Origin: an uncultured Candidatus Saccharibacteria bacterium
GTDB lineage: Bacteria; Patescibacteriota; Minisyncoccia; Phycocordibacterales; UBA918
Length of the DNA stretch: 64,000 nucleotides
NCBI GenBank assembly: GCA_964350645.1
Contig: CAYGJY010000002.1
Location: forward strand, 246,431-310,430
Direction of reading: 5' to 3'
In this document: positions 9,974 through 60,964 of the stretch, one piece after another
Numbering within the stretch: position 1 is the first letter of the stretch
Layout: the number at the start of each line of letters is the position of its first letter
Position numbers and translations under genes: made by a program
Notes under the pieces: model-generated
What the model was told of the DNA's origin: nothing
Databases searched by the model: none
What the model saw: only the letters and a program-made list of their open reading frames with translations

Positions 9974-10027
9974 ACAAGAAAACCGCCTCAAAGGCGGTTT
10001 TCTATTCTTCTAGATATTTCCATGTCT

Positions 10028-10419
10028 GGTGGAGATGGGGGTATTGAAACCCCGTCCGAATTAATCTGCCGTTGTGCGTCTACAGTGTGTAGTCGTTTCT
10101 TTGATTTAAAGTAGTGGCCTAAAGAAAAGACAAAACAATCACTACTCGAGTTGCTGCATCTTGGGCACTTGGCACAACCGACCAAGTTTCCACAGTCTGA
10201 TGTTTATTCCACCCGTACTACCTTACCAGACATGGGGTAGACGAGCGTCGTACCGGCGAGCGAGTGGTTACGCTACAGCGGGTGCGAATCCGAACGCGTT
10301 AGCGTACGGACTTGGTACAGATTTGTTTGCATCTATACGTAGCCGCCTTTTAACGAATGGCGGCCAATTTCGACACTGCACACAATGACAACAACTAACC
10401 GTCGATGCCTAGCATCCCC
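10028..10419 (-). ncRNA. ssrA: tmRNA (ssrA), ~392 nt.
   Basis: Minus-strand 5' GGGGAUGCUAGGCAUCGAC and 3' ...GGACGGGGUUUCAAUACCCCCAUCUCCACCA (tRNA-like end, acceptor pairs with 5' end); internal tag ORF GCA AAC AAA ... GCU GUA GCG UAA = ANKSVPSPYANAFGFAPAVA*; smpB adjacent. Confidence 0.75.
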
Positions 10420-10547: not shown

Positions 10548-10997
10548 TTAGTTTTGACTTTTCAAAATACGATCGATGTCTCGTTTATTGTCGCGAGCCT
10601 TAAGCGCTTCACGCTTGTCGGCTTTCTTCTTACCACGACCAATACCAATTTCGAGCTTCAACTTTCGGCCCGCATTATACAATCGAATTGGCACTATTGT
10701 CAAACCAGCTTGCTCACTTTTTTCTTCGAGCTCCTTCAGTTCTTTTTTTGATAAAAGCAGCTTACGAACCCTTTCTGGCTCATAGTCTTTCGGCATGTTG
10801 GCTGGTTGATAGGGAGCAACCGAGCTGTTTACTAAGAAAGCCTCACTGCCGCGAATAAGAACGTGGGCTCCGTCGAGCTTCGCTCGGCCGGTTTTGATGG
10901 ATTTTACCTCATAGCCAGCCAGTACTAAACCCGCCTCGAAGGTGTCGAGGATCTCATAATCAAAGCGGGCCTTTTTGTTACTGATGAGGTTACTCAT
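10548..10997 (-). CDS. smpB: SsrA-binding protein SmpB.
   Basis: 'KKARFDYEIL...EAGLVLAGYEVKSIK' canonical SmpB N-terminus, 149 aa. Confidence 0.9.
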   Translation of the reverse strand: MSNLISNKKARFDYEILDTFEAGLVLAGYEVKSIKTGRAKLDGAHVLIRGSEAFLVNSSVAPYQPANMPKDYEPERVRKLLLSKKELKELEEKSEQAGLTIVPIRLYNAGRKLKLEIGIGRGKKKADKREALKARDNKRDIDRILKSQN

Positions 10998-11091: not shown

Positions 11092-13158
11092 ATGGATGAT
11101 AATAAAAAAACACCAGTACCAGAGAACAGTGCCGATATGCCGGAGACAGCAAAAGATTCGGCAGCGATGAAAGAATCAACTGAGAAGAAAAAACCTGATC
11201 AAAAATCGAAAGGACCAAAAATGCCAAATTTAAAAGGAAAGATGCCGGTTGGGCCGGGAAATTTTTGGAATAATATTCTCTCGACCGTGCTTTTCTTGGT
11301 GATGCTTACCGCTGTCTATACGTATGTGACTGAAAATAAAACCGTACCGGAAGAGCTCTCCGTTTCACAAATCGCTGAACAAGTAAAAGCGGGTGAGGTG
11401 AGTGAGATTATTGTCCGGGGTTCGCAACTTGAGGTGAATTACACTGATGAGACACGCAATAGTGGTGAAGCTAAAAAAGAGACCGATTCGTCAATTACTG
11501 AGACGCTGATAAATCTTGGAGTGACGACTGAACAGATTTCAACAATTACACTTGATGTTCAGAATCCGACTGGTTTCTCATATTGGTTGAGTAATCTTGC
11601 CCCGTTTATTTTTCCGTTGCTATTTTTAGGAATTATCATTTGGTTCTTCACCCGTTCAGTAAAAGGAGCTGGCATGCAGGCGTTAAACTTCGGCACTAGC
11701 AAAGCTCGGATGATTGACCCGGATGACACAGCCAACAAAGTTACCTTTAAAGATGTTGCTGGCGCCAAAGAAGCGAAGCAAGAGCTCGAAGAGATTGTGG
11801 ATTTCTTAAAGAATCCAAAGAAGTTTCTCGACATTGGAGCGGAGATCCCGAAGGGTGTGATGATGATGGGTTCGCCAGGAACCGGAAAGACACTACTCGC
11901 TCGGGCAGTCGCCGGAGAAGCCGGTGTGCCATTTTTCTCAATCTCTGGTTCAGAGTTTGTTGAGATGTTTGTGGGGGTTGGTGCGAGCCGGGTACGTGAT
12001 CTATTTCAGATGGCGAAGAAAGCTGCACCAGCGATCATCTTTGTTGATGAAATTGATGCGGTGGGACGAATCCGTGGTACTGGAATTGGTGGTGGTAATG
12101 ACGAACGAGAACAAACCCTTAACCAGATCTTGGTGGAAATGGACGGCTTTGAACCAAATGCAAAGGTAATTGTGATGGCAGCGACCAACCGACCAGACGT
12201 ACTTGATCCAGCGTTGCTTCGACCAGGTCGCTTCGACCGACGAGTCACTATTGATCTACCGGACCGTGATGATCGGGAAAAAATTCTTGAAGTACATGCC
12301 CGCAAGAAGCCACTACAGGAAGATGTGAACTTAGGAATTGTGGCTCAGCGTACACCAGGTTTTTCTGGGGCTGATTTGCAGTCACTCATGAACGAAGGAG
12401 CGATTTTAGCAGCCCGCGAAGGCCGCAAGAAGGTAGGGCAGTTTGATTTGATTCGCTCAATCGAGAAAGTGATGCTTGGTCCAGAGCGAAAGAGTCATGT
12501 GTTGTCGCGCAAAGAACGGGAAGTGACTGCCTATCATGAAGTCGGACACGCCCTGGTTGCTTCGGTATTGCCCTACGCTGACCCGGTCCAGAAAATCTCA
12601 ATCATTTCTCGGGGACGCGCTGCTGGGTATACCCTAAAGTTGCCAGACGAAGATCGTCGAATGCACACCAAGAAAGAATTTATTGATGATATTGCGATGA
12701 CACTTGGTGGGTATGTTACAGAAGAAATGGTGTTTGGTGATCTTACAACCGGCCCAAGCAACGACCTCCAAGTCGTTGCTAACCTCGCTCGGGATATGGT
12801 TACGAAGTATGGTATGAGTGAACTTGGTCCAATTGCACTTGAAGGTACGGGCGGTCGTATGATCGGTGGTGGCGTCAGTGAAGATCGTGGCTATAGTCCA
12901 CAGATTGCTAAAGCGATTGATGATGAGGTTGCAAAGTTGATTGAGGCTGGTAAGCAAACTGCTCGTGAGATTCTTGAAAAACACCGCACAGCTTTGGATT
13001 CAATTTCTAAGAAACTGGTTGAAGTGGAGACACTTGAACGAGAAGAATATGAAGCTTTACTGAAAGCTGAAGGCGTCGTGATTAAAGATTTTTACCGCGA
13101 TGAGCGAGAGAAAGAAGCAGCATTAGTAGGTGATTTGTCTAAATCAGTCGAAGTATAA
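11092..13158 (+). CDS. ftsH: ATP-dependent zinc metalloprotease FtsH.
   Basis: AAA Walker A 'GSPGTGKT', SRH region, zinc-binding 'HEVGHAL'; TM anchor near N-terminus. Terminator 13169-13196. Confidence 0.95.
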
Positions 13159-22048: not shown

Positions 22049-22121
22049 CCGCCTGTAGCTCAGTTGGTAGAGCGCGAAGCTTATACCTTCGTGGTCCCAG
22101 GTTCAAGTCCTGGCGGGCGGA
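22049..22121 (+). tRNA. tRNA with anticodon UAU (Ile, AUA-decoding type).
   Basis: Cloverleaf: acceptor CCGCCTG/CGGGCGG (T6:G wobble), D-arm TAGCTCAGTTGGTAGAGC, anticodon stem CGAAG/CTTCG with loop CTTATAC, T-arm CCAGGTTCAAGTCCTGG; Ile-like backbone. Confidence 0.7.
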
Positions 22122-24442: not shown

Positions 24443-26611
24443 TTACTCCATATGCAACTGCTCACCAATTTGAGAGACTTTGTGGGCGATGAGGGGGAAG
24501 TCTTGGTTGAGTTTGGGGTGGTTGGTAACTAAGTTCTGTGCTTCGGTGCGGGCGGCTTCAACGAGCTTCAGGTTTTTGATCGCTTCCATGCCGAGGTCAG
24601 ACAGGCCGGACTGCTTGGCGCCATAGAGCTCACCAGAGCCACGAAACTGCAGGTCATGCTCGGCCAGTTCAAAGCCATTCTTGGCAGTGCTGAGCGCTTT
24701 CAGGCGCTCTTTGGTTTTGTCACTCTTGCTTTCCGTCACGGCAAAACAGTAGGGTTGGTGGGTTCCACGAATCACTCGACCACGCAGCTGGTGGAGTTGC
24801 GAGAGACCAAAGCGTTCGGCGCCTTCGATGATGATATTGGTGGCGTTGGGGACGTTTACGCCGACTTCCACTACTGAAGTGGCGACCAAGATATCAATCT
24901 CGTGGTTAGCAAACTGCAACATCACCGCATCTTTCTCGGCTGGTTTCATTTTGCCGTGCAAGACACCAATCTCGTAATCTTGGAAGACATCTTTTTTGAG
25001 ACGTACCGCTTCAGCTTTCACACTCTTGAGCTGAAGGGCAGTGGCTTTATCTGGGTCAGGCTCGTCGATGCGCGGACAAATGACATAGGCTTGTCGGCCG
25101 GCCGCTAGTTCGGAGCGGACATGCTCGTACATCTTTTTTTGCTGACTCGGGCCGACTATTTCAGTCTTCACTGGTTTGCGGCCGGCCGGCATCTCATCGA
25201 GCAGGGTGATATCAAGGTCGCCATAGATGGTGAGCGCTAAGGTGCGAGGAATTGGGGTGGCGGTCATTGAAAGTAAGTGTGGCATTCGAGCATCTTTCTT
25301 CGCTAGCTGCTTGCGTTGGTTGGTACCAAAGCGGTGTTGTTCGTCGATAATGACATAGGCAAGATGTTTAAATTCGACCGACTTATAAATAAGCGCGTGA
25401 GTCCCAATCAAAATCGGGATCTCGCCATTTTTCACCCACTTGAGTAGCTGGGCGCGGGAGATGTTGGTCGGCTTGGTGGGATCGACTTTGCTGGGGAACT
25501 TCTGGCAGCCCGAGCCAGTGATCAGACCAATTGAGATTGGGAGGTGATGAAAGTACTCGATAAAACTCTCGAAGTGTTGTTTGGCGAGGATCTCAGTTGG
25601 CGCCATGTAGGCGACCTGAAGATTACCCCAATCCTTGGCGTTGTCTGGCCGCGAAGTAGCGACAGCATAGGCAGTGGTAGCAGCGACAGCGGTTTTACCT
25701 GAGCCTACGTCACCTTCAAGCAAGCGACTCATGGCGTGATTACCATTGAAGTTTTTGAGGATCTCACCAATTGATTTGTCTTGACTTTTGGTGAGTGTGA
25801 AAGGGAAGCGTTCGGTAAAGGCTTCAACGTGCTCCGACGTGGTCTTAAAGCTGTAGGTACTGGCGGCATTGGCCAGCGCCCGGTTCTGGGCGTTTTGGAC
25901 TTGGATATAAAATACTTCCTCAAAGGCAAAGCGTTTGCGAGCGCTCTCGGCGTGCTCGGCTTTCTTCGGGGAGTGGATCCAGACGAGTGCAGTTTTTAAT
26001 ACGGGCAGTTTGTAGCGTTTCAAAATCTCTGCGGGAATTGGGTCATGAATTGTATCTAATATGCCTTTCTCAAAACACTTTAGTGCTGTGTGGTAAAACC
26101 ACTTACTCGTCACACCCTTAGTTTCACGATAGACCGGATAGATGGTCTCGTCGATCTCGGCGTCCGTGCCTTTAAAGATGGAGTCATGTCGATCAATCGG
26201 CAAAGCGTCGAGCTTCTCGACTTCCGGGTTGGCAATATACAGCTTGCCTTCTGAGCCAGTGACTTTCCCAGCTACTTTCACGTACATCCCGTCGCTATAC
26301 ATCTTGGCCAAGTAGGGTTGGTTAAACCACATGATCTTAATCTTAGCCGAACCATCTTCAATGTAGCCTTCAGCGATTGGGCGCTTGGTGGTCCAGGCTT
26401 TCCGGCTCTTCAAACCCGAGAGCTGACCATAGACGATCGCTTCTTGGTCTTTCTGTAAGCCGCCAACTGACTGCACATCAGAAATATCTTCGTACCGAGC
26501 GGGGAGGTGGTACAGTAAATCTTCCACCGTGGCGATCCGTAAACGCTTCAGTGCTTTCTGGTGCGGCTGGTCGATCCGAAAGTGATCGGTGAGGAGGTCG
26601 TGTGCTTGCAT
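24443..26611 (-). CDS. recG: ATP-dependent DNA helicase RecG.
   Basis: Wedge domain, Walker A 'GDVGSGKT', DEQH box 'IIDEQHRFG', helicase C-terminal motifs; start trimmed to M at 26611. Confidence 0.9.
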   Translation of the reverse strand: MQAHDLLTDHFRIDQPHQKALKRLRIATVEDLLYHLPARYEDISDVQSVGGLQKDQEAIVYGQLSGLKSRKAWTTKRPIAEGYIEDGSAKIKIMWFNQPYLAKMYSDGMYVKVAGKVTGSEGKLYIANPEVEKLDALPIDRHDSIFKGTDAEIDETIYPVYRETKGVTSKWFYHTALKCFEKGILDTIHDPIPAEILKRYKLPVLKTALVWIHSPKKAEHAESARKRFAFEEVFYIQVQNAQNRALANAASTYSFKTTSEHVEAFTERFPFTLTKSQDKSIGEILKNFNGNHAMSRLLEGDVGSGKTAVAATTAYAVATSRPDNAKDWGNLQVAYMAPTEILAKQHFESFIEYFHHLPISIGLITGSGCQKFPSKVDPTKPTNISRAQLLKWVKNGEIPILIGTHALIYKSVEFKHLAYVIIDEQHRFGTNQRKQLAKKDARMPHLLSMTATPIPRTLALTIYGDLDITLLDEMPAGRKPVKTEIVGPSQQKKMYEHVRSELAAGRQAYVICPRIDEPDPDKATALQLKSVKAEAVRLKKDVFQDYEIGVLHGKMKPAEKDAVMLQFANHEIDILVATSVVEVGVNVPNATNIIIEGAERFGLSQLHQLRGRVIRGTHQPYCFAVTESKSDKTKERLKALSTAKNGFELAEHDLQFRGSGELYGAKQSGLSDLGMEAIKNLKLVEAARTEAQNLVTNHPKLNQDFPLIAHKVSQIGEQLHME

Positions 26612-26756
26612 AGCTGCTACATGATAGCAGGAAGTAGCTGAAGAAACAGTAGGGGTGCTCGCTGTCGCTCGCACCCCATCCACCCAAAATTTGACAACCT
26701 AAAGAAACTATTACTATTCAATAAAATCTGCTTGCCAAGGCAAGAGAGAGAGTACT

Positions 26757-29587: not shown

Positions 29588-29674
29588 GGAGGGTTGGCTG
29601 AGTGGTCGAAAGCGCTTCACTGCTAACGAAGTAAGGGGTTAAACCCTTCAAGGGTTCGAATCCCTTACCCTCCG
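29588..29674 (+). tRNA. tRNA-Ser (anticodon GCU).
   Basis: Acceptor GGAGGGT/ACCCTCC, long variable arm GTAAGGGGTTAAACCCTTCAAG, T-arm GGGTTCGAATCCC, anticodon loop CTGCTAA; discriminator G. Confidence 0.8.
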
Positions 29675-29707
29675 CATCCTCGAGCTAGCTCGAGACATTA
29701 AATTAAT

Positions 29708-55159: not shown

Positions 55160-55230
55160 TTGCGGGGCCCGGACTCGAACCGGGGTCTGGAGGTTATGAG
55201 CCTCCCGAGGTACCACTCCTCTACCCCGCT
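55160..55230 (-). tRNA. tRNA-Met (CAU), initiator-like (tRNA-fMet candidate).
   Basis: Minus strand AGCGGGG...CCCCGCA-A with 1:72 mismatch, A11:U24, anticodon loop CUCAUAA, T-arm CCCGGTTCGAGTCCGGG; terminator hairpin downstream (55128-55155). Confidence 0.7.
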
Positions 55231-56752: not shown

Positions 56753-56826
56753 GTCGGCGTAGCTCAGTTGGTTAGAGCGTGGGACTCATAAACCCAAGGT
56801 CGGAGGTTCGACCCCTCCCGTCGACA
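56753..56826 (+). tRNA. Elongator tRNA-Met (CAU).
   Basis: GTCGGCG-TA-GCTCAGTTGGTTAGAGC..CTCATAA..GGAGGTTCGACCCCTCC-CGTCGAC-A; D-arm identical to E. coli elongator tRNA-Met. Confidence 0.75.
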
Positions 56827-59541: not shown

Positions 59542-59615
59542 CGAGAGAGGGAGAGTAACAAAACTGCCGGGAAGACACTTTGTGTCTTCCCGGCAGTTTT
59601 GTTAGACTCAATATC

Positions 59616-60089
59616 ATGACTGAAGAATCCATTCCGCTTACAATTGTTCGTTTTAGACCAGCTGATTTTGATCTGGCGGCTCTTGCTACACGTCTGACTG
59701 AATTTAAGGGAGTTGCCTCACGCACGCCGACACCCGTTACTGTCGAACAGTTACAAGCTATTGGGACCAGTGAAACAAATGTCCTCTTATTGCAAATGGC
59801 TGGTGAAATTGTTGTCGGTATGATTCATGTGGCAGTGATCTATCTTGAGGATCGAGCTCATATTGGACCAATCTGTGTTGATACCACCAACACACCTCGG
59901 GGACACGGCACGCCGCTGATGCAGGCCGCGATTGACTATGTAACAGCAAATTTTGCAGATCTGCGACGAATAGATTTAACCAATCGCCCCAGTCATGACA
60001 TTGGTGAATGGTATAAAAAATTTGGCTTCGAGCCTCGTACTGAGGCTGCGGGTGACCCAAGTACAGTCTACCGACTCTCTTTAAAATAA
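59616..60089 (+). CDS. GNAT family N-acetyltransferase.
   Basis: 'RGHGTPLMQAAIDYV' motif A; start trimmed to 'MTEESIP'. Confidence 0.6.
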   Translation: MTEESIPLTIVRFRPADFDLAALATRLTEFKGVASRTPTPVTVEQLQAIGTSETNVLLLQMAGEIVVGMIHVAVIYLEDRAHIGPICVDTTNTPRGHGTPLMQAAIDYVTANFADLRRIDLTNRPSHDIGEWYKKFGFEPRTEAAGDPSTVYRLSLK

Positions 60090-60964
60090 TGATTATTGAA
60101 ACACAAGCACGGATTGCTGAAATCGAAGCCGCGATGCTCCGGTCAGATTTTTGGAATGATTCGGGGAAAGCGCAAGCGATGATCAAAGAGCTGCAAGAGC
60201 TTAAAGATACCGCCGACGGAAAAGGTAAGTATGATCGTAACGATGCGGTGTTTACCATCGTAGCCGGCGCTGGCGGTGATGACGCTGAAGACTTCGCTCG
60301 TATGTTGGTTGAGATGTATCAGCGGTACGCTGAAGGCCGTGGGTGGGGAGTCACCATTCTTGATAGTACTACCAACGACCACAATGGCTACCGTAACATT
60401 ACTTTTCAAATTAGTGGTAAAGAAGCGTATGGCACATTGCAAAGTGAGGCTGGCGTGCATCGCTTGGTGCGCATCTCACCCTTCAATAGCAACGGCAAAC
60501 GCCAGACCTCGTTTGTATTAGTTGAAGTTTCACCTCAGGTTGATGATCTTAAAGAAATTGATTTACAGGAAGATGAGCTCGAGATTAGCTTTGCTAAATC
60601 GGGAGGAGCTGGTGGACAAAACGTCAACAAACGAGAAACAGCAGTGCGCATCGTCCACAAATCAACTAACATTGCAGTGTCAGTCTCGACCGAACGTTCA
60701 CAGCAACAAAATAGAGAAAAGGCTCTTTCACTCTTGGCAGGCCGAGTGTTTGCTTTTCGAGAAGAACAACACAAACGTGAGTTAAAAGGACTATCAGTGG
60801 AGAAATCATTGAAGATTGAATGGGGTAGCCAGATTCGATCGTACGTCCTTCATCCGTATCAGCTCGTAAAAGACCACCGGACCAACACTGAAGTGCGGGC
60901 AGTGGACGCAGTACTGGCTGGAGATATTCAGCAGTTTTTGGACACTGCCGCCAACATAGAGTAA
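60089..60964 (+). CDS. prfB: Peptide chain release factor 2, N-terminally short (291 aa), no programmed frameshift.
   Basis: 'SPF' stop-recognition tripeptide ('RISPFNS') and 'SGGAGGQNVNK' GGQ motif; TAATG overlap with upstream gene. Confidence 0.75.
   Translation: MIIETQARIAEIEAAMLRSDFWNDSGKAQAMIKELQELKDTADGKGKYDRNDAVFTIVAGAGGDDAEDFARMLVEMYQRYAEGRGWGVTILDSTTNDHNGYRNITFQISGKEAYGTLQSEAGVHRLVRISPFNSNGKRQTSFVLVEVSPQVDDLKEIDLQEDELEISFAKSGGAGGQNVNKRETAVRIVHKSTNIAVSVSTERSQQQNREKALSLLAGRVFAFREEQHKRELKGLSVEKSLKIEWGSQIRSYVLHPYQLVKDHRTNTEVRAVDAVLAGDIQQFLDTAANIE

What the first reader, a model, noticed from the sequence alone, without database searches (positions are those of the whole stretch)
22049..22121. 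tRNA with UAU anticodon (AUA-decoding isoleucine type)
The cloverleaf is unambiguous and has an Ile-like backbone, but the anticodon loop CTTATAC gives anticodon UAU. Most bacteria decode AUA with a tRNA-Ile(CAU) modified to lysidine by TilS. A genomically encoded UAU tRNA is uncommon and is known from a few reduced genomes. It implies a different AUA-decoding strategy and possible loss of tilS. Separately, two CAU tRNAs are present in this window: an initiator-like one at 55160-55230 and an elongator Met at 56753-56826.
Basis: partly seen in the sequence, partly recalled or inferred. Interest (0 to 1): 0.5.

Follow-up and report, generated by a model that had tools for sequence, protein, structure and literature searches.

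The report
Isoleucine tRNA that reads AUA directly
This is a real, working isoleucine tRNA with a UAU anticodon in an ultra-small (Patescibacteria/CPR) bacterium, and it belongs to a tRNA family conserved across much of that phylum that appears to replace the usual lysidine-based way of reading the AUA codon.

Summary
ARAGORN and Rfam both call a tRNA at 22049-22121 (+) with anticodon UAU. The window comes from a Patescibacteria (Paceibacteria-like) genome.

The tRNA is not a pseudogene or a recent import. I collected 90 copies (73 distinct trimmed sequences were aligned) from 32 named genomes and 57 metagenome contigs. Most sit in the same RecG - tRNA - FtsH - SmpB neighbourhood. The anticodon loop is CUUAUAC in 86 of 90. 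In the alignment 99.9% of stem positions pair, and 16 of 21 pairs show compensatory changes.

AUA makes up 12% of Ile codons in the window and aligns with AUU/AUC/AUA in relatives, not AUG. So AUA still means Ile.

A published table of 95 complete Patescibacteria genomes shows two near-exclusive layouts. Either a genome has two non-CAU tRNA-Ile genes with two or fewer CAU tRNAs (40 of 45), or it has one tRNA-Ile with three or more CAU tRNAs (50 of 50). The window has exactly an initiator and one elongator CAU tRNA.

This is a new member of a known kind (Mycoplasma mobile, Bifidobacterium and Neorickettsia type). Its phylum-scale spread is not discussed in any paper I could search. Loss of tilS, the type of IleRS and the state of U34 could not be tested here.

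The parts
22049..22121 (+). tRNA-Ile(UAU), the proposed AUA decoder. C1-G72, C4-G69, U12-A23, loop CUUAUAC, A73, no encoded CCA.
   Evidence: ARAGORN; Rfam 69.1 bits; sequence. Member of a 90-copy family with strong covariation.
55160..55230 (-). Initiator tRNA-Met(CAU): A1.A72 mismatch, A11-U24, G30-C40 and G31-C39.
   Evidence: ARAGORN and Rfam; sequence.
56753..56826 (+). Elongator tRNA-Met(CAU): C11-G24, A73, A31.A39 mismatch. The only non-initiator CAU tRNA in the window.
   Evidence: Same class as the elongator CAU tRNAs of CPR loci L014, L015, L024 and L025. Best consistent E. coli match is the core tRNA-Met.
24443..26683 (-). recG, the conserved neighbour of the tRNA (context, not a functional partner). 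In the window lysA and two ygjV genes lie between them.
   Evidence: Pfam. A tRNA(UAU) lies downstream of recG in 46 of 49 related loci that have at least 3 kb of downstream sequence.
11092..13158 (+). ftsH (context). In many bacteria and in Saccharibacteria tilS sits just upstream of ftsH. Here that position holds smpB (10548-10997, -) and tmRNA (10027-10419, -).
   Evidence: NCBIfam FtsH; SmpB; tmRNA. Same layout in related loci: FtsH in 45 loci, SmpB in 32. TilS beside FtsH in Southlakia.

Best explanation
The gene at 22049-22121 encodes a functional minor isoleucine tRNA whose genomic UAU anticodon pairs directly with the AUA codon.

Inferred steps:
- It is cut out of a transcript shared with, or just upstream of, lysA.
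- It receives CCA from the CCA-adding enzyme.
- It is charged with isoleucine by an IleRS that tolerates U34.
- It reads AUA, while tRNA-Ile(GAU), which lies outside the window, reads AUU and AUC, and the single elongator tRNA-Met(CAU) reads AUG.

In this lineage it takes the place of the usual pair of tRNA-Ile2(CAU) and TilS (lysidine synthetase). The genome is therefore expected to hold only two CAU tRNAs, the two in this window, and probably no tilS.

Shown here: the tRNA is real, it is conserved under selection for its structure and its anticodon loop, it is vertically inherited across Patescibacteria, AUA is in use and still means Ile, and complete genomes with two non-CAU tRNA-Ile genes lack a third CAU tRNA.

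Inferred only: Ile charging, absence of tilS in this particular genome, the modification state of U34, and how AUG misreading is avoided.
For: 1. Real tRNA with anticodon UAU.

2. Conservation. A 28-base pattern of the anticodon arm, with position 34 left free, hit 32 species genomes. All carry T34, and nearly all are Patescibacteria MAGs. A recG-anchored metagenome scan gave 80 loci, and 57 carry tRNA(UAU). That is 46 of 49 among loci with at least 3 kb downstream of recG. No CAU tRNA occurs at that position.

3. Selection. The loop is CUUAUAC in 86 of 90 copies and CUUAUAU in 4. In the alignment of 73 distinct sequences, 99.9% of cells pair, 16 of 21 pairs have changes on both sides, and the covariation score is 0.665 against 0.169 when shuffled and at most 0.155 when the partners are slid. 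C32, U33, U34, A35, U36, A37 and A73 are invariant.

4. Host and synteny. FtsH, RecG and the ABC transporter are 70-85% identical to named CPR loci, in the same gene order.

5. AUA is used and means Ile. It accounts for 152 of 17,060 codons and 12.4% of Ile codons. Window AUA codons align with ATT, ATA and ATC in relatives (46% Ile, then Val and Leu). ATG is not among the eight commonest aligned codons. Window ATG codons align with ATG 62% of the time.

6. Complete genomes (PMC13011429 Table S2). Of 45 Patescibacteria genomes with two or more non-CAU tRNA-Ile genes, 40 have two or fewer CAU tRNAs. All 50 genomes with one tRNA-Ile have three or more.

7. Contrast case. The saccharibacterium Southlakia has TilS next to FtsH, three tRNA-Met genes and one tRNA-Ile.

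8. No PP-loop (SGGxDS) ORF in the window, in the 32 genome loci or in 1.02 Mb of metagenome loci.

9. Backbone. C4-G69, U12-A23, A37 and A73 are E. coli IleRS identity elements, and C4-G69 with C5-G68 are E. coli TilS determinants (established knowledge: Nureki 1994, Ikeuchi 2005, cited from memory). The only native-backbone E. coli matches are ileY-type tRNA-Ile2 alleles, and the match is weak (E = 0.1).
Against: - The rest of the source genome (a 449,760-bp contig plus others) could not be read. A tilS gene and a third CAU tRNA elsewhere are not excluded.
- The published table gives counts per amino acid, not anticodons. That the second tRNA-Ile is UAU is my inference from the loci.
- Five of the 45 genomes with two tRNA-Ile genes also have three CAU tRNAs, so coexistence does occur.
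- Two E. coli IleRS identity elements are not present here: position 38 is C rather than A, and pair 29-41 is A-U rather than C-G.
- No IleRS sequence from this lineage was available.
- No strong sigma-70 promoter match lies upstream of the tRNA.
Confidence: 0.8

Rival explanations
1. Redundant decoder. The genome still has tilS and a tRNA-Ile2(CAU) outside the window, and the UAU tRNA is a second, partly redundant AUA reader. This is the transitional stage described by Taniguchi et al. 2013.
For: Taniguchi et al. note bacteria that hold both a TAT tRNA gene and tilS. Five of 45 complete Patescibacteria genomes with two tRNA-Ile genes also have three CAU tRNAs. Only 64 kb of this genome was seen.
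Against: Forty of those 45 genomes have two or fewer CAU tRNAs. The window holds exactly one initiator and one elongator CAU tRNA, 1.5 kb apart. There is no PP-loop ORF beside ftsH, either here or in any related locus that carries ftsH.
Confidence: 0.13
2. The tRNA has a UAU anticodon but is not charged with isoleucine, so AUA is reassigned or ambiguous in this lineage.
For: Positions 38 (C) and 29-41 (A-U) differ from the E. coli tRNA-Ile identity set. About half the family, including the window copy, has an unusual C1-G72 first pair.
Against: Window AUA codons align with ATT, ATC and ATA in relatives, with a profile like that of ATT and ATC codons and unlike ATG. A73, A37, U12-A23 and C4-G69 fit Ile identity. 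MetRS needs a CAU anticodon (established knowledge).
Confidence: 0.03
3. The tRNA is a pseudo-tRNA, or a recently acquired phage or mobile-element tRNA with no core role.
For: In the window the tRNA is separated from recG by lysA and two ygjV genes, a local rearrangement compared with relatives.
Against: Stems show compensatory covariation, the anticodon loop is invariant across 73 distinct sequences, and synteny is conserved across classes. Phage records give only 78-80% matches, to tRNA-Lys and tRNA-Met genes. No integrase or mobile gene lies beside it in the window.
Confidence: 0.02

Closest known systems
Mycoplasma mobile tRNA-Ile2(UAU) (Taniguchi et al. 2013, PMC3575796)
   Same: It is a bacterial, genomically encoded UAU anticodon that reads AUA in a small genome and stands in for tRNA-Ile2(CAU) plus TilS. 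It has A37 (t6A in M. mobile) and A73.
   Different: In M. mobile, unmodified U34, the Arg865 change in IleRS and ribosomal rejection of AUG were shown by experiment. None of these is known here. The M. mobile case is one species inside a tilS-bearing clade. Here the tRNA is shared across many classes of a phylum, in a conserved neighbourhood, with a nearly fixed loop CUUAUAC (C38) and often a C1-G72 first pair.
Bifidobacterium and Neorickettsia tRNA-Ile(UAU) paired with a eukaryote-type IleRS
   Same: These bacteria lack tilS and carry a TAT tRNA gene. tRNAscan-SE 2.0 calls the type tRNA-Ile3(UAU).
   Different: They rely on a horizontally acquired eukaryote-type IleRS. The IleRS type of this organism could not be examined.
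Canonical bacterial tRNA-Ile2(CAU) plus TilS (lysidine)
   Same: It has the same job of decoding AUA as Ile. The window tRNA keeps C4-G69 and C5-G68 and an Ile2-like variable loop and T loop. Its only native-backbone E. coli matches are ileY alleles.
   Different: Position 34 is T in all 90 copies, so no lysidine is needed. No TilS-like ORF was seen in any sequence examined.
Eukaryotic tRNA-Ile(UAU) and the archaeal tRNA-Ile(UAU) of Nanoarchaeum and Korarchaeum
   Same: The UAU anticodon is encoded in the genome and replaces the C34-modification route.
   Different: They belong to different domains. Eukaryotic copies carry pseudouridine at positions 34 and 36 and an intron. No relationship by descent is implied.

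Membership tests
tRNA (Rfam RF00005) | Cloverleaf that scores above the family gathering threshold | tested here: met
   69.1 bits against 29, full model 1-71; ARAGORN call.
tRNA (Rfam RF00005) | Stems maintained by compensatory change in homologues | tested here: met
   99.9% of cells paired; 16 of 21 pairs changed on both sides; 0 of 500 shuffles reach the observed covariation score.
Bacterial tRNA-Ile(UAU) AUA decoder (M. mobile type, 'tRNA-Ile3') | Genomically encoded UAU anticodon in a 7-nt loop with U33 and A37 | tested here: met
   Loop CUUAUAC. C32 through A37 are invariant in 73 distinct sequences.
Bacterial tRNA-Ile(UAU) AUA decoder (M. mobile type, 'tRNA-Ile3') | AUA codons are in use and mean isoleucine | tested here: met
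   8.9 per 1000 codons. AUA aligns with ATT, ATC and ATA in relatives, not ATG.
Bacterial tRNA-Ile(UAU) AUA decoder (M. mobile type, 'tRNA-Ile3') | Isoleucine identity elements (E. coli set: A73, C4-G69, U12-A23, C29-G41, t6A37, A38) | tested here: inconclusive
   A73, A37 and U12-A23 are invariant. C4-G69 is present in the window and in 60 of 73 sequences. C38 replaces A38, and 29-41 is A-U in the window. The reference set is from E. coli and was recalled from memory.
Bacterial tRNA-Ile(UAU) AUA decoder (M. mobile type, 'tRNA-Ile3') | Genome lacks tRNA-Ile2(CAU), so it has only initiator and elongator CAU tRNAs | tested here: inconclusive
   The window has exactly two CAU tRNAs of those two kinds. 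Forty of 45 complete Patescibacteria genomes with two tRNA-Ile genes have two or fewer CAU tRNAs. The rest of the source genome was not seen.
Bacterial tRNA-Ile(UAU) AUA decoder (M. mobile type, 'tRNA-Ile3') | Genome lacks tilS | not testable with these tools
   No SGGxDS ORF in the window or in about 1.3 Mb of related loci, including the ftsH-upstream position. Whole genomes could not be scanned.
Bacterial tRNA-Ile(UAU) AUA decoder (M. mobile type, 'tRNA-Ile3') | IleRS adapted to U34 (a Trp905-equivalent change, or a eukaryote-type enzyme) | not testable with these tools
   There is no IleRS in the window or in any fetched locus. A KMSKS motif search found only one LeuRS-like ORF.
tRNA-Ile2(CAU)/TilS lysidine system | C34 in the gene, later converted to lysidine | tested here: not met
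   T34 in the window and in all 90 family members. The genome scan left position 34 free and returned 0 of 32 with C.
Phage or mobile-element tRNA, or pseudo-tRNA | Patchy distribution, mobile-gene context, decayed structure | tested here: not met
   Conserved synteny across classes. No integrase beside it. Phage matches are 80% or lower and fall on other isotypes.

The most novel reading that the evidence does not exclude
A large part of the Patescibacteria radiation decodes AUA with a vertically inherited, genomically encoded tRNA-Ile(UAU). The groups are most Paceibacteria, Microgenomatia, Dojkabacteria, WWE3, UBA1384, Doudnabacteria, and parts of ABY1 and Gracilibacteria. These lineages have dispensed with tRNA-Ile2(CAU) and, by inference, with TilS. 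Saccharimonadia, Absconditabacteria (JAEDAM01) and a few Paceibacteria keep the lysidine system.

If so, what textbooks treat as a handful of exceptions is the rule for a sizeable share of bacterial diversity. I found no paper that says this. A bolder version, which is not excluded, is that UAU is the retained ancestral state proposed by Taniguchi et al. rather than a reversal.
Probability: 0.5. Interest if true: 0.6.

Novelty: new member of a known kind. Interest (0 to 1): 0.45.

Why it matters
TilS is usually described as near-universal and essential in bacteria, and is discussed as an antibacterial target. Reviews state that prokaryotes have lost the UAU anticodon apart from rare cases.

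This window adds an instance from a phylum where the UAU route looks like the norm in several classes. That has three consequences:
- It offers a natural comparison, inside one phylum, between UAU-type and lysidine-type lineages. That comparison can address how IleRS, the ribosome and the elongator tRNA-Met adapt to keep AUA and AUG apart.
- It affects annotation. The second 'tRNA-Ile' in CPR genomes is the AUA reader, and a genome with only two CAU tRNAs is not incomplete.
- It warns against using tilS as a universal single-copy marker when estimating the completeness of CPR genomes.

Tried and rejected
- **Source contig.** Exact look-ups of window proteins returned only short Logan contigs (24.8, 19.0, 5.7 and 4.8 kb). 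They extend at most about 2.5 kb beyond the window and add nothing relevant.
- **LigA homologue search for taxonomy.** The few source names were contradictory (Azotimanducaceae, Acidimicrobiales, Patiriisocius). I judged them mislabelled MAG contigs.
- **tilS beside ftsH.** I looked in CPR loci L014 and L025. The genes there are XerC-like, DivIC and sortase, not TilS.
- **PP-loop motif scan of every fetched locus.** It gave one hit, an antisense ORF inside recG in L007 that I judged spurious.
- **IleRS motif scan.** It found only one LeuRS-like ORF.
- **Literature.** Searches linking Patescibacteria, CPR, Parcubacteria or Saccharibacteria with tilS, lysidine or AUA returned nothing relevant.
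- **Supplements of two CPR papers.** In Minisyncoccus the one 'tRNA(Ile)-lysidine synthase' label sits on a protein whose best match is an N-acetyl sugar amidotransferase. The stored file is cut before the recG region, so it settles nothing. The activated-sludge paper has no KO table held.
- **Phage origin.** Rejected.
- **Programmed frameshift in prfB.** Rejected: the upstream ORF is a GNAT acetyltransferase.
- **Not run.** I ran no further search on a TilS or IleRS probe. Without a query from this lineage, the 120 listed hits would come from other phyla, and their absence from the list would mean nothing.

Full report
**The observation**

The stretch 22049-22121 on the + strand is a tRNA by two independent methods. 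ARAGORN reports tRNA-Ile with anticodon tat. The Rfam tRNA model matches end to end at 69.1 bits against a gathering score of 29.

Read from the sequence, the molecule has:
- acceptor stem CCGCCUG/CGGGCGG, so the first pair is C1-G72
- D stem GCUC/GAGC
- anticodon stem CGAAG/CUUCG
- anticodon loop CUUAUAC
- five-base variable loop UGGUC
- T arm CCAGG-UUCAAGU-CCUGG
- discriminator A73

CCA is not encoded, and the same is true of all six tRNAs in the window. The one at 55160-55230 (-) has an unpaired 1-72 position (A.A) and A11-U24, which are initiator marks. The one at 56753-56826 (+) has an elongator D stem.

**What genome this is**

The window encodes FtsH, LigA, GatA, RecG, SmpB and tmRNA, a type IV pilus cluster, pyrimidine genes, LysA, FtsE/FtsX and a release factor. 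It is therefore a cellular bacterium, with about 45% G+C.

Source names attached to LigA homologues were contradictory. The tRNA itself gave the answer. A scan of one genome per species was run with the anticodon arm and position 34 left free. It returned 32 loci, nearly all from Patescibacteria (CPR) MAGs: Kaiser-, Nomura-, Pace- and Spechtbacteria, WWE3, and several labelled Saccharibacteria.

Window proteins are 70-83% identical to those loci, and up to 85% identical to metagenome relatives, in the same gene order. The organism is therefore a Paceibacteria-like member of the CPR. Some MAG labels are unreliable (Acidimicrobiales, Gammaproteobacteria, and probably many of the 'Saccharibacteria' labels). 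Those loci carry the same CPR genes.

**Is the tRNA functional?**

All 32 genome hits carry T at position 34, although the pattern allowed any base.

I then anchored a metagenome scan on RecG, the usual neighbour of the tRNA. It returned 80 loci with RecG 53-85% identical to the window's.
- ARAGORN finds tRNA(UAU) in 57 of them.
- Among loci with at least 3 kb downstream of recG, 46 of 49 have it, at a median of 608 bp from the recG stop.
- None has a CAU tRNA at that place.

Together with the window this makes 90 genes. The loop is CUUAUAC in 86 and CUUAUAU in 4.

I aligned the 73 distinct trimmed sequences and counted pairs against the cloverleaf.
- 99.9% of cells form standard pairs.
- 16 of 21 pairs have changes on both sides, including all seven acceptor pairs and all five anticodon-stem pairs.
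- The covariation score is 0.665, against 0.169 for shuffles (0 of 500 reach it) and at most 0.155 when the partners are slid.
- Invariant positions include U8, A9, G10, C11, U12, A14, C32-U33-U34-A35-U36-A37 and A73. C38 is at least 90% conserved.

This is the signature of a tRNA under selection for both its fold and its anticodon loop. It rules out a pseudogene. The conserved order malic enzyme - recG - tRNA - (ABC transporter) - ftsH - smpB - tmRNA across classes rules out a recent import. Phage records give only 78-80% matches, to tRNA-Lys and tRNA-Met genes.

**Does AUA need a reader, and what does it mean?**

In 57 window genes AUA occurs 152 times in 17,060 codons. That is 8.9 per 1000 codons and 12.4% of Ile codons.

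At LigA positions encoded by AUA, 119 homologues have I 48%, V 22%, L 16% and M 1%.

At the codon level, across all window genes with homologues in the loci, window AUA aligns with ATT 22%, ATA 13% and ATC 10% (46% Ile overall). That profile matches window ATT and ATC. Window ATG aligns with ATG 62% of the time. AUA is therefore an ordinary Ile codon here.

**Does it replace the lysidine system?**

The window holds no TilS and no IleRS. None of the ORFs of 80 residues or more in the window, the 32 genome loci or the 1.02 Mb of metagenome loci has a PP-loop motif. The single hit was an antisense ORF inside recG in L007, which I judged spurious. This covers only a small slice of each genome, so it says little on its own.

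It does cover the position where tilS often sits, just upstream of ftsH. That is the case in the saccharibacterium Southlakia epibionticum (SEML1_0730 TilS next to SEML1_0729 FtsH). It is also the case in Bacillus subtilis (my own knowledge). In the window and its relatives that position holds smpB and tmRNA.

Stronger evidence comes from a published table of tRNA counts in 95 complete Patescibacteria genomes (PMC13011429, Table S2). The paper does not discuss it in these terms. ARAGORN names tRNAs by anticodon, so its 'Met' column counts CAU genes.

| tRNA-Ile genes (tRNAscan-SE) | Genomes | CAU tRNAs (ARAGORN 'Met') |
|---|---|---|
| 2 or more | 45 | 2 or fewer in 40; 3 in 5 |
| 1 | 50 | 3 or more in all 50 |

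Fisher's exact test on the 2x2 table gives p about 1e-21, but the genomes are not phylogenetically independent.

- **Two-Ile layout:** Dojkabacteria, Doudnabacteria, Microgenomatia, WWE3, UBA1384, most Paceibacteria, and part of ABY1 and Gracilibacteria.
- **One-Ile layout:** Saccharimonadia, JAEDAM01, Kazan-3B-28 and five Paceibacteria.

Southlakia fits the second layout: three tRNA-Met, one tRNA-Ile and TilS.

The table lists no anticodons. That the second Ile gene is UAU is my inference from the 90 genes above. The window fits the first layout: one initiator and one elongator CAU tRNA, 1.5 kb apart. The elongator belongs to the same class as the elongator CAU tRNAs of other UAU-bearing CPR loci. 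It matches the core elongator tRNA-Met of E. coli rather than ileX or ileY, although the match is weak.

**Mechanism: what is shown and what is inferred**

Shown: the gene, its conservation, its anticodon, the use and meaning of AUA, and the complementary distribution of a second non-CAU tRNA-Ile gene and a third CAU tRNA.

Inferred, from the known biology of Mycoplasma mobile tRNA-Ile(UAU) (PMC3575796):
- The tRNA is charged by an IleRS that accepts U34.
- A37 carries t6A.
- Misreading of AUG through U.G wobble is limited by competition with tRNA-Met, by the ribosome, or by a U34 modification.

The backbone is compatible with Ile identity as defined in E. coli: A73, A37, U12-A23 and C4-G69. 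It also keeps C4-G69 and C5-G68, which E. coli TilS reads on tRNA-Ile2. This suggests descent from an Ile2-type gene by a C34-to-T change. It differs from the E. coli set at position 38 (C) and at pair 29-41 (A-U).

The only native-backbone E. coli matches to the window tRNA were two ileY alleles, which themselves carry TAT. The match is weak (E = 0.1), so I treat it as a hint only.

**Comparison with what is known**

Bacterial tRNA-Ile(UAU) is an established but supposedly rare kind.
- Nine species lacking tilS in 2013.
- 19 species in tRNADB-CE.
- 17 genomes in the tRNAscan-SE 2.0 survey.
- Still called 'rare cases' in 2026.
- A 2021 review states that prokaryotes have lost UAU.

Taniguchi et al. 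also mention 371 unassigned TAT tRNA genes in metagenomes. CPR genomes may account for many of these, which is speculation on my part.

I found no paper connecting Patescibacteria with UAU, tilS or lysidine. The held library omits many subscription papers, so this is absence of evidence only.

**Verdict**

The tRNA in this window is a new member of a known kind, not a new mechanism. The more interesting point lies outside the window. The same gene, in the same neighbourhood, runs through much of the CPR and tracks the absence of a third CAU tRNA.

Whether tilS is truly gone, what IleRS looks like, and whether U34 is modified all remain open. They need whole-genome scans and experiments.

Noticed in passing
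L005:4098-4185, L035:7021-7108, L043:2801-2888, L063:9312-9401, L072:8459-8546 and six more loci; compare window 29588-29675: A well-formed tRNA-Ser with anticodon ACU (loop UUACUAA) occurs in 11 CPR loci, usually beside tRNA-Ser(GCU) (nine of the eleven loci, from 70 bp to 4.5 kb apart) and, where malic enzyme and recG are in view, on the malic-enzyme side of recG (upstream). Its stems differ between loci in a compensatory way. A34 tRNAs other than Arg(ACG) are very rare in bacteria. The window's tRNA-Ser(GCU) shares its acceptor, D and T arms with the ACU-type gene of its closest relative (L035) but has G34.
   Followed up: partly
L115:1498-1573 (E. coli Z0117EC0133, NZ_CP098183.1 3550561-3550636); the same match in strain G47-1, NZ_CP195164.1: Two E. 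coli genomes carry a tRNA-Ile2 gene of the ileY type (next to ypjC) with a TAT anticodon (loop CTTATAA) instead of CAT. They appear to be natural C34-to-T alleles.
   Followed up: partly
window 60089-60964 (+): Release factor 2 is only 291 aa and matches positions 111-350 of the 353-position prfB model. Most of the N-terminal domain is missing. There is no programmed frameshift site, and the upstream ORF (59580-60089) is a GNAT acetyltransferase.
   Followed up: partly
window 56753-56826 (+); L014:4865-4941, L015:448-524, L024:56-131, L025:3017-3093: The elongator tRNA-Met(CAU) of these CPR genomes has a mismatch at the bottom of the anticodon stem: A31.A39 in the window and A31.G39 in the others. 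It sits next to the loop CUCAUAA.
   Followed up: no
window 22049-22121 and alignment A2: The first acceptor pair of the tRNA(UAU) family flips between C1-G72 (37 of 73) and G1-C72 (34 of 73). C1-G72 is unusual for bacterial tRNAs other than tRNA-Pro.
   Followed up: no
window 10027-10419 (-), 10548-10997 (-), 11092-13158 (+): tmRNA (tag ANKSVPSPYANAFGFAPAVA), smpB and ftsH form a conserved block. Among the recG-anchored loci, ftsH was found in 45 and smpB in 32, and where both are present smpB lies on the far side of ftsH from recG (adjacent within a few hundred bp in most, up to about 6.5 kb away in a few). This is the position that tilS occupies in Saccharibacteria.
   Followed up: partly
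L012, L019, L020, L023 and others among L003-L034: Public MAG labels disagree with gene content. Contigs labelled Acidimicrobiales or Saccharibacteria carry Paceibacteria-like RecG and FtsH (74-80% identical to the window where matched), and the contig labelled Gammaproteobacteria (L012) matched no window protein but has CPR-like genes. All carry the same tRNA(UAU).
   Followed up: partly
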